DNA of 64,000 bases from Escherichia coli (lineage in GTDB: Bacteria; Pseudomonadota; Gammaproteobacteria; Enterobacterales; Enterobacteriaceae): NCBI RefSeq assembly GCF_044647545.1, contig NZ_CP172818.1; one strand, given 5' to 3'. A program made the position numbers and the translations under genes. Below, one piece after another: positions 5,899 to 64,000 of this stretch. Under the pieces are notes generated by a model. That model saw only the letters and a program-made list of their open reading frames with translations, did no database searches and had not been told where the DNA came from. Every line of letters begins with the position of its first letter. Position 1 is the stretch's first letter.

Positions 5899-6627
5899 TC
5901 ATTCATAATGTGTTTTCACCGTTCGCTTAGGCATAAACTGCCGGAACAGTTCCCTGCTCTTTAATGGTTTACCGCCAAGATACGGCTTAAGCGCCATGCG
6001 GGTAAAGCGTTTCGCGGCGCGCAGTGTGTCTGCGTCAGGAAATTCCCGCGCGTTTAACGCTTTTAACTGCCTTCCGGTGAACGTTTTATTGTCGATAACG
6101 ACGCTTGCGATAAACCCTTTTTCTTCGCGATAACGATACGTCATGGTGTCATCTACCGGCTCGCCGCTACCCGCACAATGGGTAAAATTGACGCCATAGC
6201 CCAGATGCCCGAGCAGTGCCAGTTCAAAGCGGCGCAGCGCGGGTTCTGGCGTACCAGTGGCACCTGCAAGTGACTGAATGCAGTGCAAGTAATCGAAAAA
6301 GAGTTCAGAGAAGCGCGTCTCGTATTCCAGTACGCGGGAGAGAAGTTCGTTGATGTACAGACCGCTGTAAAGCGTGATACCGCTTAATGGCAGCGCCAGC
6401 GAGACGGCTTCAGCACTGCGCAGCGTTTTTACTTCGCCACGCCCGCCGAAACGTAGCAAGAGAGGGGTGAAAGGCTGTAATGCACCTTTCAGAGTAGAGC
6501 GTTTAGAGCGTGCGCCTTTGGCAACCAGACGCACGCGACCCGATTCCTCCGTGAAGACGTCCAGCATCAAGCTGGTTTCGCTCCACGGGCGACTATGCAG
6601 GACAAATGCGCGCTGCCAGCCTTCCAT
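5899..6627 (-). CDS. recO: DNA repair protein RecO
   Basis: Track ORF 242 aa beginning [19 protein letters not shown]. Confidence 0.9.
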
Positions 6628-6638
6628 CGGAGTTACTC

Positions 6639-8251
<1,613 letters not shown>

Positions 8252-59371: not shown

Positions 59372-59734
59372 GGGGCTGATTCTGGATTCGACGGGATTTG
59401 CGAAACCCAAGGTGCATGCCGAGGGGCGGTTGGCCTCGTAAAAAGCCGCAAAAAATAGTCGCAAACGACGAAAACTACGCTTTAGCAGCTTAATAACCTG
59501 CTTAGAGCCCTCTCTCCCTAGCCTCCGCTCTTAGGACGGGGATCAAGAGAGGTCAAACCCAAAAGAGATCGCGTGGAAGCCCTGCCTGGGGTTGAAGCGT
59601 TAAAACTTAATCAGGCTAGTTTGTTAGTGGCGTGTCCGTCCGCAGCTGGCAAGCGAATGTAAAGACTGACTAAGCATGTAGTACCGAGGACGTAGGAATT
59701 TCGGACGCGGGTTCAACTCCCGCCAGCTCCACCA
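59372..59734 (+). ncRNA. ssrA: Transfer-messenger RNA (tmRNA)
   Basis: 363 nt from GGGGCTGATTCTGGATTCGACGGG to GGGTTCAACTCCCGCCAGCTCCACCA; internal frame GCAAACGACGAAAACTACGCTTTAGCAGCTTAA encodes tag ANDENYALAA; TATACT -10-like hexamer upstream. Confidence 0.97.
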
Positions 59735-59868: not shown

Positions 59869-59919
59869 TAGGCCCATTGATAGGCCCAACGAAAAGCTCT
59901 ATTGTTTACGTTGGGCCTA
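59869..59919 (+). promoter_or_regulatory. Repeat cluster upstream of intA (candidate Int/regulator binding sites)
   Basis: Two direct copies of TAGGCCCA (59869, 59881) and a perfect 10-bp inverted repeat TAGGCCCAAC...GTTGGGCCTA (59881..59890 and 59910..59919), 19-57 bp upstream of intA ATG. Confidence 0.4.
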
Positions 59920-59937
59920 AACGCAGGGAGACTCCCC

Positions 59938-61179
59938 ATGGCAAGAAAAACCAAGCCGTTAACTGATACGGAAATCAAAGCCGCCAAACCTAAAGATGCC
60001 GATTACCAGCTTTATGACGGTGACGGGCTTACTCTGTTAATCAAGTCCAGTGGCAGTAAGCTTTGGCAATTCCGTTACTATCGGCCTTTGACCAAGCAGC
60101 GAACCAAACAGAGCTTCGGTGCCTATCCTGCCGTCTCGCTTTCTGATGCACGTAAACTCAGAGCCGAATCTAAAGTTTTATTGGCGAAAGACATTGATCC
60201 TCAGGAACATCAGAAAGAACAGGTGAGGAATTCTCAAGAGGCCAAAACCAATACCTTCTTGTTAGTTGCCGAGCGTTGGTGGAATGTGAAGAAAACCAGC
60301 GTAACAGAGGACTATGCCGACGATATCTGGCGCTCGCTTGAGAGAGATATTTTCCCGGCAATCGGTGATATCAGTATCACTGAGATTAAGGCTCATACTC
60401 TGGTTAAAGCAGTTCAGCCGGTTCAGGCCAGAGGTGCATTAGAGACTGTTCGCCGCCTTTGTCAGCGTATTAACGAAGTCATGATTTATGCGCAGAACAC
60501 AGGCCTGATTGATGCTGTTCCTAGTGTAAATATCGGAAAAGCTTTCGAGAAACCGCAAAAGAAAAACATGCCAAGCATCCGGCCGGATCAACTTCCGCAG
60601 CTAATGCACACCATGCGTACGGCAAGTATCAGCATGTCCACAAGATGCCTGTTCATGTGGCAACTTCTAACCATCACCCGCCCTGCCGAAGCTGCTGAGG
60701 CTCGATGGGATGAGATCGATTTCAATGCTAGCGAATGGAAAATTCCTGCAGCTCGAATGAAGATGAACCGGGACCATACGGTTCCACTATCTGATGGGGC
60801 TCTTGCTATTCTGGAAATGATGAAGCCTCTCAGTGGTGGCCGAGAATTTATCTTTCCTAGCCGTATCAAGCCCAACCAACCAATGAATAGCCAAACAGTG
60901 AATGCAGCACTCAAGCGTGCTGGCTTAGGAGGTGTACTTGTTTCACACGGCTTGCGTTCTATCGCCAGTACGGCACTCAATGAGGAAGGATTTCCACCTG
61001 ATGTCATTGAAGCAGCGCTTGCTCATGTAGACAAAAATGAGGTGCGTCGCGCTTATAACCGCAGTGATTATCTTGAGCAACGTCGTCCGATGATGCAATG
61101 GTGGGCTGATCTCGTAAAAGCAGCAGATAGTGGTAGCATCGTTTTAACTCATTTGAGCAAAATTCGTCTTGTCGGATAA
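59938..61179 (+). CDS. intA: Tyrosine-type prophage integrase
   Basis: Track ORF 59902..61179; ATG at 59938 preceded by GGGAG gives 413 aa; catalytic-region motifs HGLRS and RAYNRSDY. Confidence 0.92.
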   Translation: MARKTKPLTDTEIKAAKPKDADYQLYDGDGLTLLIKSSGSKLWQFRYYRPLTKQRTKQSFGAYPAVSLSDARKLRAESKVLLAKDIDPQEHQKEQVRNSQEAKTNTFLLVAERWWNVKKTSVTEDYADDIWRSLERDIFPAIGDISITEIKAHTLVKAVQPVQARGALETVRRLCQRINEVMIYAQNTGLIDAVPSVNIGKAFEKPQKKNMPSIRPDQLPQLMHTMRTASISMSTRCLFMWQLLTITRPAEAAEARWDEIDFNASEWKIPAARMKMNRDHTVPLSDGALAILEMMKPLSGGREFIFPSRIKPNQPMNSQTVNAALKRAGLGGVLVSHGLRSIASTALNEEGFPPDVIEAALAHVDKNEVRRAYNRSDYLEQRRPMMQWWADLVKAADSGSIVLTHLSKIRLVG

Positions 61180-61186
61180 AATATTT

Positions 61187-61216
61187 ATCAGCCCAGCTCT
61201 CTGGGCTGATATTTCT
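61187..61216 (+). terminator. Stem-loop terminator after intA
   Basis: Perfect 10-bp stem ATCAGCCCAG / CTGGGCTGAT with 4-nt loop, AT-rich flanks, 8 nt past intA stop. Confidence 0.6.
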
Positions 61217-61304
61217 AAAAGATCGCACTAAATAGCTACGCGGAATAGTGCTCTACTTTCGTTTAGCCCTTTCAGAGGTAAGACATTAGGGCAATTTCAC
61301 TGTA

Positions 61305-61318
61305 TGACTGCGCAGTCA
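61305..61318. repeat. Perfect 14-bp palindrome TGACTGCGCAGTCA
   Basis: Self-complementary 14-mer in the intA-yfjH intergenic region; possible operator or part of the yfjH 3' structure. Confidence 0.4.
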
Positions 61319-61422
61319 TCGAGTCTGTGGGGTGTTGCTCCTTTTGCAACGTATCACTTGTCAATAAATAGAAAGTGTAGATGTATTAGGCGCAGCTATT
61401 TAGTCTATATGGCAAGTAGTAA

Positions 61423-62379
61423 TTATTTACTTCTTTTTTTTCTACGAACAGCGCTATCGAAAGCTTGTTTTACATCTTCATTTTTTAAAGACCATTGATT
61501 TAAAATAGTATCAACCAAAGCATCTTGACTCATTGTTGCTACACGATATTTTTTATTTTGATTATTTATCTCAAACTCTGACATTTGAATAAAATCCCAT
61601 AGCGGTTCGATAAGTTCATTAACTGCTACAACCTTATTTTTCCACCCATCATTCGGAACAGAGTCATTAATTAGCTCAACCAACTTCAGTTGAATGATAT
61701 GGTACACTTCCGCTTTGCTTTTGCCACCCTTCTTTCCTGCACTCCGCCTGACTTCTGATAATTTTTTTTGATTACAAACAGAGATGTTAAACCAAGTCAT
61801 ACCTATGCACTTATCAAATAACTCCGCAGCCCGATGAAATGCTTTAAAGGCAACGTTTTCATTTTCAGACATGATAGATTTTCCCCAGAAAAAAGAGATT
61901 GAGGCGAACATAAGGTGTGCCTTGAAAATGTCATTAATGGAAAATGGCTCGATAACAAGAGGTAAAAACGTTTCCTTGGTAAGGTTTGAACTTAGATTTT
62001 TCCAGCATTCTTGAGCTGGATCATATAATTCAGTGTATTCTTCCTTTATCTCCAGTTGCCCATTCACTGTATGGTGCCTTGTTTCCCATGGTACATCGCA
62101 GGAATATAACCTCACACGAGTACCTATTTTCTCAGAGCTCCAGAATTGCTCTCGCATTCTGCCTAGCTCAATCCGTATTTCCGGATGATCTTCCTCTAGA
62201 ACATCAGTATCCACCGCCCATTCGCATTCGGACATGTGATAGGCGAGATCACGTCGTTTTCTACAAATTTGTTCATAAAAATCATTCAGAGAAATCATAA
62301 AACCACCATAAATCAATGTATTAGAGGTTGTAAAAATTGTATTTTTGGTACATGGGTTTTTTGCCTTAAAGATACCCAT
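61423..62379 (-). CDS. yfjH: Uncharacterized prophage protein, AT-rich orphan gene adjacent to integrase
   Basis: Track ORF 61423..62499; internal Met at 62379 gives 318 aa and avoids overlap with alpA; strongly AT-rich; no motif I can assign. Confidence 0.6.
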   Translation of the reverse strand: MGIFKAKNPCTKNTIFTTSNTLIYGGFMISLNDFYEQICRKRRDLAYHMSECEWAVDTDVLEEDHPEIRIELGRMREQFWSSEKIGTRVRLYSCDVPWETRHHTVNGQLEIKEEYTELYDPAQECWKNLSSNLTKETFLPLVIEPFSINDIFKAHLMFASISFFWGKSIMSENENVAFKAFHRAAELFDKCIGMTWFNISVCNQKKLSEVRRSAGKKGGKSKAEVYHIIQLKLVELINDSVPNDGWKNKVVAVNELIEPLWDFIQMSEFEINNQNKKYRVATMSQDALVDTILNQWSLKNEDVKQAFDSAVRRKKRSK

Positions 62380-62422
62380 TAATCTCTCTGCAACCAAAGT
62401 GAACCAATGAGAGGCAACAAGA

Positions 62423-62635
62423 ATGAACAATCGATCGGCCGTTAGAATACTACGGTTACCAGCGGTTATCCAAAAAACAGGTATGGCACGGGCCACCATC
62501 TATGACTGGTTGAACCCCAAATCACCACGATACGATGCCACCTTTCCCAAAAAGCGAATGCTCGGCGTGAAATCTGTCGGATGGATTGAGGCCGAGATTG
62601 ATGAGTGGTTATCACAACGCTGTAAACTTATTTGA
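62423..62635 (+). CDS. alpA: AlpA-family prophage transcriptional regulator / excisionase-like protein
   Basis: Track ORF 70 aa beginning MNNRSAVRILRLPAVIQKTGMARATIYDW; GAGG ribosome-binding site upstream. Confidence 0.85.
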   Translation: MNNRSAVRILRLPAVIQKTGMARATIYDWLNPKSPRYDATFPKKRMLGVKSVGWIEAEIDEWLSQRCKLI

Positions 62636-62763
62636 GGGTGTTACATGAATTCATACTCAATTGCTGTCATCGGAGTGTAAACATCCTGCTATTTCCGCCA
62701 TTAATAGCGGAATAGCCATATTTGCTAAACAATTTCTTAATTTAATTAAATAAGAGGCATTGC

Positions 62764-64000
62764 ATGTTCAATGGTCGTCCTTTCCCTGTAGATGCATTTC
62801 CTAAAATTATCAGGAATGCAATTTATGAAGTGGAACAGCATACGCAGGCCCCTCAAGGTTTGATTGCTGCTTCTGCTCTTGGGGTAATTTCTCTTGCCTG
62901 TCAGAACCGGATTGATGTTTGCCGATTGAATAATCTACGTGGCCCGGTATCACTTTTCTTAATGACTCTGGCTGAATCAGGTGAACGTAAGAGTACGGTT
63001 GATAAACTGCTGATGAAGCCATTATATCAACTGGAAGAGGATTTATTTGAAAAATACACCCACGATCTTACCGCATGGAGAAATGATGAAGCAATTTTTA
63101 ATATTGAAAAAAAAGCACTGATGTCAAAACTTAAATCAGATATTCGACGTAACAAAGATCACTTGGCAACAAATGAAAGACTTAAAGAACTACTTACGAC
63201 AAACCCGAAAGCTCCAGTGAGATTCAAATTTTTATTTAACGATGCCACACCTGCAGCTATTAAAGCTCATCTCTGTGGGCACTGGCGATCAGTCGGCATC
63301 ATGTCTGATGAAGCTGGGATCATTTTTAATGGTTACACACTTAACGAGCTGCCGTTTATCAATAAGATGTGGGATGGTTCAATATTTACGGTGGAAAGGA
63401 AAAACGAGCCCGAGAAATTAATTAGAGATGCAAGAATAACACTGTCGCTGATGGTCCAGCCTAATGTTTTTAAGGGTTATATCGACAGGAAAGGAGATAT
63501 GGCAAAGGGGATTGGATTTTTTGCACGGTGCCTCATGTGCCAGCCTGCTTCAACACAAGGTAACAGAAAAATTTCCAACCCAATTTTTTCAAATGAACAT
63601 TTGCCGGTATTTCACCAACGTCTTATGGAAATTGTTAATGAGAGCATCATTAAAATTAATGAAAATAATCGCATCTGCCTCCGATTCTCTGCAGAAGCAG
63701 AAAGACATTGGATCGAATTCTACAACCAGGTCGAGTCAGAAATGAGAATGATTGGCCTTCTTTATGATTTTAAGGATTATGCTTCTAAAATGGCGGAGAA
63801 CATGGCGAGGCTTGCTGCCTTACTTCATTACTTCAGCGGTGATGGAGGCGATATATCTGTTACCGCAGTAAAAGCAGCAGTGGAGATAGTGGCTTGGTAT
63901 ATTGAAGAATACATCCGCTTGTTCTCTAAAAAAGAAGAGTTTTCTTTAGATGTTTCAGAAGCAGATGAGCTTTATTGTTGGATAAAAGATTACTGCACGC
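62764..64000 (+). CDS. yfjI: Uncharacterized prophage protein (DUF3987-like by recollection), 3' end beyond window
   Basis: Hand translation from ATG 62764 (AGAGG 7 nt upstream) is open to the window end (412 codons) beginning MFNGRPFPVDAFPKIIRNAIYEVEQHTQAPQGL; absent from ORF track because no stop lies in the window. Confidence 0.7.
   Translation, partial: MFNGRPFPVDAFPKIIRNAIYEVEQHTQAPQGLIAASALGVISLACQNRIDVCRLNNLRGPVSLFLMTLAESGERKSTVDKLLMKPLYQLEEDLFEKYTHDLTAWRNDEAIFNIEKKALMSKLKSDIRRNKDHLATNERLKELLTTNPKAPVRFKFLFNDATPAAIKAHLCGHWRSVGIMSDEAGIIFNGYTLNELPFINKMWDGSIFTVERKNEPEKLIRDARITLSLMVQPNVFKGYIDRKGDMAKGIGFFARCLMCQPASTQGNRKISNPIFSNEHLPVFHQRLMEIVNESIIKINENNRICLRFSAEAERHWIEFYNQVESEMRMIGLLYDFKDYASKMAENMARLAALLHYFSGDGGDISVTAVKAAVEIVAWYIEEYIRLFSKKEEFSLDVSEADELYCWIKDYCT

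What the first reader, a model, noticed from the sequence alone, without database searches (positions are those of the whole stretch)
62764..64000. Long ORF missing from the ORF track because it runs off the window end
Translation from ATG 62764 stays open for 412 codons to the last base, with a good ribosome-binding site. It matches the start of the prophage gene yfjI as I recall it. Any analysis relying only on the track would miss it.
Basis: seen in the sequence. Interest (0 to 1): 0.4.

Follow-up and report, generated by a model that had tools for sequence, protein, structure and literature searches.

The report
Known prophage gene yfjI, cut short
The open frame at the end of the window is the first 412 of 469 codons of yfjI, an already annotated gene of the E. 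coli K-12 cryptic prophage CP4-57 whose product looks like an MCM-type replicative helicase of that mobile island; the finding is correct but ordinary.

Summary
From ATG 62764 the frame stays open for 412 codons to base 64000. It has an AAGAGG ribosome-binding site 6 nt upstream and an in-frame TAA at 62743-62745. The other five frames carry 16-43 stops (chance about 3e-13). The ORF tool omits it only because it runs off the window.

The interpretation also holds. The DNA is 100% identical to E. coli K-12 MG1655, where the same ATG starts yfjI (469 aa, "YfjI family protein"). The stop lies 173 nt beyond the window. Context is the CP4-57 cryptic prophage: ssrA, intA, yfjH, alpA, yfjI.

YfjI is a full-length DUF3987 protein (Pfam E 7e-108) and is officially of unknown function. 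Here it has:
- an invariant P-loop (SGERK) and Walker B glutamate across 83 relatives
- a C-terminal winged helix that the window cuts off

A DUF3987 relative is a proven 5'-3' helicase. int-alpA-DUF3987 is a conserved core of small integrative islands and phage satellites. Most likely YfjI is the island's replicative helicase, probably idle in K-12.

Known gene, known family: low interest.

The parts
62752..62757 (+). Ribosome-binding site AAGAGG, 6 nt upstream of the yfjI ATG
   Evidence: Read directly from the sequence
62764..64000 (+). yfjI, codons 1-412 of 469. The missing 57 codons and the stop lie 173 nt beyond the window end
   Evidence: 100% identity to MG1655 yfjI, with the same start and frame
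62845..63927 (+). DUF3987 (PF13148) domain, aa 28-388. It comprises an N-terminal helical part, an AAA+ ATPase core and a helical lid
62971..62994 (+). P-loop / Walker A variant A70-E-S-G-E-R-K76-S77
   Evidence: S72, G73, E74, R75 and K76 are invariant in 83 relatives of 21-85% identity
63304..63312 (+). Walker B S181-D182-E183, at the end of strand 176-181
   Evidence: E183 is invariant in 83 relatives. Strand assignment comes from the AF2 model
63958..64000 (+). Start of the C-terminal winged-helix domain (aa 399-464). Only its first helix (aa 399-412) lies inside the window
62423..62635 (+). alpA, the excision activator / Vis-like protein of CP4-57, 128 nt upstream of yfjI on the same strand
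   Evidence: Pfam Phage_AlpA E 7e-24. RefSeq annotation. 34% identical to P4 Vis/ORF88, E 4e-13
61423..62379 (-). yfjH, unknown function, divergent from alpA
   Evidence: RefSeq annotation. PHROG 19089, unknown function. No Pfam family
59938..61179 (+). intA, the P4-family tyrosine integrase of CP4-57
   Evidence: Pfam Phage_integrase plus Arm-DNA-bind_3. Annotation. 36% identical to P4 Int, E 9e-85
59372..59734 (+). ssrA (tmRNA), the chromosomal attachment site that marks the left border of CP4-57
   Evidence: ARAGORN. Rfam RF00023, 292.8 bits. Annotation. Integration into ssrA is stated in PMC3105296

Best explanation
The ORF is the 5' 88% of yfjI (b2625) of the E. coli K-12 cryptic prophage CP4-57. 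This is shown. YfjI is a stand-alone member of the DUF3987 family: an AAA+ ATPase of the MCM (superfamily 6) kind with a helical lid and a C-terminal winged helix. This is shown by sequence profile and by predicted fold. The rest is inferred. It is the replication helicase of the int-alpA-DUF3987 type of integrative island. After AlpA-triggered excision it would bind the circle through its winged helix, assemble as a ring, and unwind DNA using ATP bound at K76/E183. Host primase and polymerase would do the synthesis, because YfjI itself has no primase domain. In K-12 the module is probably silent or insufficient, because the excised element is lost.
Against: No biochemical or genetic test of YfjI itself exists. 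It is still listed among uncharacterised 'y-ome' genes (PMC11551758). 789 transposon insertions in it were reported to be neutral (bioRxiv 10.64898/2026.05.27.727350). alpA overexpression is used to cure K-12 of CP4-57 (PMC3105296), so the excised circle is not stably maintained. No origin-like iteron cluster was found near the gene. No primase was identified in the island. Foldseek TM-scores are modest (0.25-0.39), partly because of an inserted helix of about 55 residues (aa 76-128) after the P-loop. Similarity to the assayed helicase AgaPH was not measured here. The AAA+ clade also contains non-helicases (RavA, BchI).
Confidence: 0.75

Rival explanations
1. yfjI in K-12 is an intact but functionless relic. 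The gene once served a mobile island, and in the cryptic CP4-57 it is neither expressed usefully nor needed. This concerns its present role and is compatible with the helicase ancestry.
For: Insertions in yfjI were neutral. CP4-57 is lost after alpA-driven excision. Excision is rare, fewer than 1 per 100,000 cells. GC content of 35-40% marks foreign DNA. No promoter-like site above background lies upstream.
Against: The ORF is full length. Every family-invariant residue is present. It is identical across K-12 lineages and present in 413 of 5426 complete E. coli genomes. Family-wide dN/dS is 0.10-0.15, although this measures the family's history and not K-12's recent past.
Confidence: 0.3
2. 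YfjI is an AAA+ protein that is not a helicase. It could be an origin-binding initiator or loader (ORC/Cdc6-like), or a MoxR/chelatase-like remodelling ATPase that uses its winged helix to bind DNA.
Confidence: 0.1
3. YfjI is an anti-phage defence ATPase, part of the defence cargo of CP4-57 (AbpAB, GmrSD-like YfjM and RnlAB lie just downstream).
Against: PADLOC gave no hit. Its position next to alpA is constant while the defence cargo downstream changes completely between islands. That marks it as a core gene, not cargo.
Confidence: 0.05
4. YfjI is a DNA primase, as homologous genes are labelled in satellite models ('prim') and in some database names ('putative DNA primase/helicase').
For: There is a weak match to PHROG 3022 'DNA primase' (E 1e-8, aa 251-421). 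Source names appear. The PICMI 'prim' model uses PF13148.
Against: YfjI has no Toprim, Prim-Pol/AEP or zinc-ribbon domain. Pfam finds only DUF3987 even at E<=1. The PHROG 3022 match covers positions 553-720 of a 788-position profile, i.e. the C-terminal part of a long profile and not its start. In fused relatives the primase domains lie N-terminal to the DUF3987 part.
Confidence: 0.03

Closest known systems
E. coli K-12 yfjI (b2625; WP_000481742.1), CP4-57 prophage
   Same: Identical DNA over all 1237 bases held in the window. Same start codon, frame and neighbours.
   Different: Nothing differs. The window simply ends 173 nt before the stop, so 57 C-terminal residues are missing.
AgaPH, the PriCT-DUF3987 helicase of a pAgo-carrying island of Seonamhaeicola (PMC11724360)
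   Same: Both have the DUF3987 domain with Walker A and B followed by a small C-terminal domain, and both are encoded in an integrase-bearing island. AgaPH is an oligomeric ATP/dATP-dependent 5'-3' helicase.
   Different: AgaPH has an N-terminal PriCT domain and a partner Prim-Pol gene (AgaPP). YfjI has neither. Pairwise similarity was not measured here.
MCM replicative helicases (archaeal MCM, eukaryotic MCM2-7, MCM8/9)
   Different: Sequence identity is only 9-15%. YfjI lacks the N-terminal OB-fold/zinc domain of MCM and has a small helical N-terminus instead. It has a long helix (aa 76-128) inserted after the P-loop. The assayed DUF3987 helicase moves 5'-3', whereas MCM moves 3'-5' (established knowledge).
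Phage P4 alpha protein (primase-helicase-origin binding) and the P4 int/vis module
   Same: Both sit in the same kind of element. IntA is 36% identical to P4 Int (E 9e-85) and AlpA is 34% identical to P4 Vis (E 4e-13). The replication gene lies downstream of vis/alpA on the same strand. P4 alpha also ends in an origin-binding winged helix (from knowledge).
   Different: YfjI shows no sequence similarity to alpha (E 0.55). Alpha is a Toprim primase plus a superfamily 3 helicase (from knowledge). YfjI is MCM-like and has no primase. This looks like non-orthologous replacement, not membership. sid, delta and psu have no annotated counterpart in the 6 kb downstream of yfjI; the rest of CP4-57 was not examined.
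'prim' gene of PICMI phage satellites (Vibrionaceae) and Pri/Rep of PICI-type satellites
   Same: The core is int, alpA and a replication gene. The PICMI search model defines 'prim' by PF13148 or DUF5906. Deleting prim lowers satellite replication and transfer.
   Different: CP4-57 integrates in ssrA, not next to fis. It is larger and carries much cargo. No helper phage is known, and the K-12 element is lost after excision.
SCCmec Cch and SaPI Rep (DUF927) helicases
   Different: They belong to a different Pfam family, and the structural score is much weaker than to MCM itself.

Membership tests
E. coli K-12 gene yfjI (CP4-57) | Nucleotide identity, same start and frame, same neighbours (ssrA-intA-yfjH-alpA upstream) | tested here: met
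   100% identity over 1701 bases. The annotation places yfjI at L001 6465-7874, which is window 62764 onward.
DUF3987 / YfjI family (Pfam PF13148) | Whole-protein score above Pfam's gathering threshold with full-length coverage of the model | tested here: met
   361 bits against a cut-off of 27; model positions 1-363 of 364; aa 28-388.
Superfamily 6 (MCM-like) AAA+ helicases | P-loop lysine (Walker A) and Walker B acidic residue conserved | tested here: met
   S72-G-E-R-K76 and E183 are invariant in 83 relatives of 21-85% identity.
Superfamily 6 (MCM-like) AAA+ helicases | AAA+ core plus lid fold closest to MCM | tested here: met
Superfamily 6 (MCM-like) AAA+ helicases | Arginine finger, sensor 1, sensor 2 and the pre-sensor-1 hairpin in the right places | tested here: inconclusive
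   The invariant residues Q232 (end of strand 224-231), R255, R268 and R349 (lid) are candidates. They were not mapped residue by residue onto an MCM structure.
Superfamily 6 (MCM-like) AAA+ helicases | Ring (hexamer) assembly and ATP-driven DNA unwinding | not testable with these tools
   Shown only for the relative AgaPH (PMC11724360).
Primase-helicase fusion proteins (P4 alpha type, Prim-Pol/Toprim-DUF3987 type) | A primase domain (Toprim, AEP/Prim-Pol, zinc ribbon) in the same polypeptide | tested here: not met
   DUF3987 is the only significant Pfam hit even at E<=1. There is no similarity to P4 alpha. Primase domains occur only in longer relatives.
Phage satellites with an int-alpA-replication core (PICMI / PICI / P4-like) | Co-located integrase, AlpA and a DUF3987/DUF5906-type replication gene | tested here: met
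   intA 59938-61179, alpA 62423-62635 and yfjI 62764 onward. These are the criteria of the PICMI model apart from fis.
Phage satellites with an int-alpA-replication core (PICMI / PICI / P4-like) | Induction, replication and packaging by a helper phage; for P4-like satellites, also sid/delta/psu capsid-size genes | not testable with these tools
   No helper is known for CP4-57, and the excised element is lost. sid/delta/psu homologues are not annotated in the 6 kb downstream of yfjI. The rest of CP4-57 was not examined.
Anti-phage defence proteins (PADLOC models) | A match to any known defence-system model | tested here: not met
   No PADLOC family at E<=0.01.

The most novel reading that the evidence does not exclude
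alpA-yfjI-yfjJ is a self-contained replication module of a widespread class of ssrA/tRNA-integrating defence islands that behave as helper-dependent satellites. In this reading a primase-less MCM-like helicase (YfjI) works in trans with a small HUH-type nicking protein (YfjJ). YfjJ carries invariant H109-x-H111 and Y187-x-x-K190 and matches REP_ORF2-G2P. The excised circle would then replicate by a rolling-circle route primed from the nick, and CP4-57 of K-12 would be a dormant example that could be woken by the right helper phage.
Probability: 0.2. Interest if true: 0.45.

Novelty: already known. Interest (0 to 1): 0.1.

Why it matters
For the scan, the finding is a useful technical reminder. 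An ORF track that drops frames running off the window hides a real 469-codon gene, and the part that is cut off is a separate domain, the winged helix. Biologically nothing new is found. yfjI is annotated in every K-12 genome. Its family was predicted to be MCM-like helicases in 2016, and a member was shown to be a helicase in 2025. The modest added value is that K-12's own 'unknown function' gene can now be given a specific, testable function: replication helicase of the CP4-57-type island. It also sits in the same int-alpA-replication core as recently described phage satellites. That makes E. coli K-12 a convenient place to test how such islands replicate.

Tried and rejected
- NCBIfam and PADLOC gave no family for YfjI, YfjJ or YfjH.
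- Sequence searches against PDB chains found nothing significant, either with the single protein or with a 29-sequence profile. The best relevant hit was an MCM at E 2.1.
- The first AlphaFold run used 27 close homologues and failed in the ATPase core (pLDDT 67.5; residues 157-276 below 50). Its Foldseek search gave only weak MCM hits. A second run used an 83-sequence alignment that included distant relatives, recruited through IMG/VR loci and a profile search. That solved the problem.
- YfjI against P4 alpha: no similarity. 'P4-like' therefore applies to int and alpA only.
- The promoter and terminator scan of 61100-64000 was not above shuffled background, and it found no + strand terminator between alpA and yfjI.
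- The alpA-yfjI spacer folds no better than shuffles (z -0.96). Rfam found only tmRNA.
- The repeat search and a k-mer search for clustered iterons around yfjI/yfjJ found no convincing origin.
- A small Psychrobacter plasmid with a DUF3987 gene turned out to have its own RepM plus an integrase-bearing insert, so it says nothing about DUF3987 as a sole replicon function.
- The idea that YfjJ is an obligatory partner of the helicase was weakened. Burkholderia and Stenotrophomonas islands have int-alpA-DUF3987 without YfjJ.

Full report
1. The observation

Window 62764-64000 on the + strand translates into 412 codons without a stop, up to the last complete codon of the window.
- The ATG at 62764 is the first possible start after an in-frame TAA at 62743-62745.
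- AAGAGG lies at 62752-62757, six bases before the ATG.
- The other five frames of the same 1237 bases contain 16 to 43 stops.
- 2000 shuffles never gave fewer than 14 stops in this frame.
- The composition-based chance of 412 open codons is about 3e-13.
- The mechanical ORF list omits this frame, because ORFs that run off the source are not listed.

2. Identity

A megablast of window 62300-64000 against all complete E. coli genomes gives 100% identity over all 1701 bases to K-12 MG1655, C600, J53 and other K-12 derivatives. The features under the match are annotated yfjH, alpA and yfjI. 413 of 5426 genomes have a match.

In MG1655 (locus L001) yfjI occupies 6465-7874. That is window 62764 to a position 173 nt beyond the window end. 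The alignment of window and MG1655 has no mismatch.

The surroundings are the left end of the cryptic prophage CP4-57:
- smpB
- ssrA, the tmRNA, at window 59372-59734
- intA, yfjH on the minus strand, alpA, yfjI
- beyond the window: yfjJ, abpB, abpA, yfjM and rnlA

GC content falls from about 50% to 35-40% across yfjH-yfjJ.

3. What the protein is

Residues 28-388 match Pfam DUF3987 end to end (E 7e-108). They also match PHROG 2373, labelled DNA helicase (E 5e-100). NCBIfam, PADLOC and PDB sequence searches give nothing.

The family is very large. A full HMMER scan of 1.84 billion representative proteins finds 11,435 clusters at E<=1e-3 and 1,768 at E<=1e-30. Roughly 43 of the best 150 carry 200-600 extra N-terminal residues. 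Where I looked at such longer relatives, the extension is a Prim-Pol, Toprim, PriCT or DnaB-N domain. DUF3987 thus occupies the helicase position of primase-helicases. YfjI itself has no primase domain.

In an 83-sequence alignment spanning 21-85% identity the invariant residues are S72-G-E-R-K76 (a P-loop), E183 (Walker B, preceded by D182 in the YfjI subfamily), Q232, G251, R255, P261, G266, R268, A312, E324, R349 and R433.

With that alignment AlphaFold2 gives a confident model (mean pLDDT 91.3, pTM 0.80). An earlier run with only close homologues failed in the core. The model shows:
- a small helical N-terminus
- a beta-sheet ATPase core, with an unusually long helix (76-128) inserted after the P-loop
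- a helical lid (279-387)
- a short disordered linker (390-396)
- a canonical winged helix (399-464)

This independently reproduces the published assignment of DUF3987 to MCM-related superfamily 6 helicases with a C-terminal wHTH (PMC4889955). A PriCT-DUF3987 protein, AgaPH, has since been shown to be an oligomeric, ATP/dATP-dependent 5'-3' DNA helicase that needs its Walker A and B motifs (PMC11724360).

The window ends at residue 412, inside the first helix of the winged helix. The whole ATPase is in the window, but the presumed DNA-recognition domain is not.

4. Context and likely role

The trio alpA-yfjI-yfjJ, preceded by a P4-family integrase and followed by unrelated cargo, recurs in Dickeya, other E. 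coli and Cronobacter. The cargo differs each time: radical-SAM/PHP genes, a DUF4011 helicase, SMC-like/MComp1 genes.

More distant stand-alone relatives (about 30% identity) in Stenotrophomonas and Burkholderia lie in int-x-alpA-DUF3987 modules. These are followed by McrBC plus a type I restriction enzyme, or by Kiwa, and have no yfjJ. The constant core is therefore int, alpA and the DUF3987 gene. That is the definition used for the PICMI satellites of Vibrionaceae, where the DUF3987/DUF5906-type gene ('prim') is needed for satellite replication and transfer, and alpA triggers excision (PMC10803314).

Comparison with phage P4 itself gives:
- IntA is 36% identical to P4 Int (E 9e-85).
- AlpA is 34% identical to P4 Vis (E 4e-13).
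- YfjI has no similarity to the P4 alpha primase-helicase (E 0.55).

So the replication slot is filled by a non-homologous helicase. dN/dS of 0.10-0.15 against orthologues, with dS near saturation, indicates long-term purifying selection on the family.

The best-supported reading is that YfjI is the replicative helicase, and probably the origin-recognising protein through its winged helix, of this class of island. It would act after AlpA-driven excision. What is shown is identity, family, motifs, fold and synteny. What is inferred is ring formation, origin binding, use of host primase and polymerase, and any activity of the K-12 copy.

5. Evidence against, and rivals

- YfjI has never been assayed. 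[quoted passage not shown]
- Overexpressing alpA is a standard way to cure K-12 of CP4-57 (PMC3105296). So the excised circle does not maintain itself, and the module is idle, insufficient or helper-dependent in K-12.
- I found no iteron-like origin and no promoter or terminator signal above background.

The rivals considered are a functionless relic (compatible with the helicase ancestry), a non-helicase AAA+ initiator or remodeller, a defence ATPase, and a primase. The last two are contradicted by PADLOC, by the constant position next to alpA and by the absence of any primase domain.

6. Side observation

YfjJ lies outside the window and is annotated 'inovirus Gp2 family'. It matches PF11726 and, above threshold, PF23343 REP_ORF2-G2P. 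It carries an HUH-like H109-Y-H111 and a Y187-x-x-K190 motif, both invariant in four orthologues of 40-55% identity. It looks like a rolling-circle nicking protein sitting next to the helicase. This underlies the speculative reading given as the novel case. Its absence from the beta-proteobacterial islands argues that it is not an obligatory partner.

7. Verdict

The gene and its family are already known, and the functional assignment reached here agrees with published predictions. The novelty category is 'already known' and the interest is low (0.1). The practical lesson is that end-of-window ORFs need to be rescued. A minor biological gain is a concrete, testable function for a K-12 'y-gene'.

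Noticed in passing
L001 8027-8653 (MG1655; about 326-952 nt beyond the window end): YfjJ ('inovirus Gp2 family', PF11726 plus PF23343 REP_ORF2-G2P) carries an HUH-like RHYHLIL motif and a DYMTK (YxxK) motif. H109, H111, Y187 and K190 are invariant in four orthologues of 40-55% identity. It looks like an uncharacterised HUH rolling-circle nuclease next to the helicase gene.
   Followed up: partly
L002-L006 and L029-L032 (Dickeya, E. coli, Cronobacter, Stenotrophomonas, Burkholderia loci): int...alpA-DUF3987 is a constant core, followed by a hot spot of changing defence-type cargo: radical SAM/PHP, a DUF4011 helicase, SMC-like+MComp1+CTD1, McrBC plus type I R-M, and Kiwa KwaAB. In K-12 the same position holds AbpAB, YfjM and RnlA.
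   Followed up: partly
window 61423-62499 (-) against annotated yfjH 61423-62379: The mechanical ORF for yfjH is 358 aa from an upstream ATG and would overlap the start of alpA (62423) on the opposite strand. RefSeq annotates 318 aa. The PHROG 19089 match begins only at residue 28 of the annotated protein, so the true start is uncertain. YfjH has no Pfam family.
   Followed up: no
window 59902-61179 (+): The ORF list starts intA at a TTG at 59902 (425 aa). The annotated gene starts at the ATG at 59938 (413 aa).
   Followed up: no
window 62688-62716 (+), alpA-yfjI spacer: An imperfect hairpin, GCTATTTCCGCC-ATTAATA-GCGGAATAGC, sits 48 nt upstream of the yfjI ATG. It has no T-run, is not called a terminator, and the spacer folds no better than shuffles (z -0.96). 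It could be a protein-binding site.
   Followed up: partly
window 61186-61211, just after intA: A G+C-rich hairpin (11 pairs) reads as a terminator on both strands between intA and yfjH. It is the only strong terminator-like site in the region.
   Followed up: no
L001 3570-3620 (window about 59869-59919), between ssrA and intA: TAGGCCCA occurs three times within 50 nt, and a 15-nt inverted repeat (TAGGCCCAACGAAAA / TTTACGTTGGGCCTA) lies here. These may be integrase arm sites or regulatory sites of CP4-57.
   Followed up: no
literature and database labels (PICMI model, JGI names, PHROG 3022): DUF3987 genes are often labelled 'primase' or 'prim'. The domain itself is the helicase part, and stand-alone members such as YfjI have no primase domain.
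   Followed up: yes
plasmid collection, e.g. NZ_CP011106.1 and NC_006365.1 (Legionella): YfjI-family genes of about 33% identity sit on many conjugative Legionella plasmids (26 of the 64 plasmid records with a match). A 216-nt fragment 94% identical to yfjI codons 297-368 lies on two E. coli plasmids.
   Followed up: no
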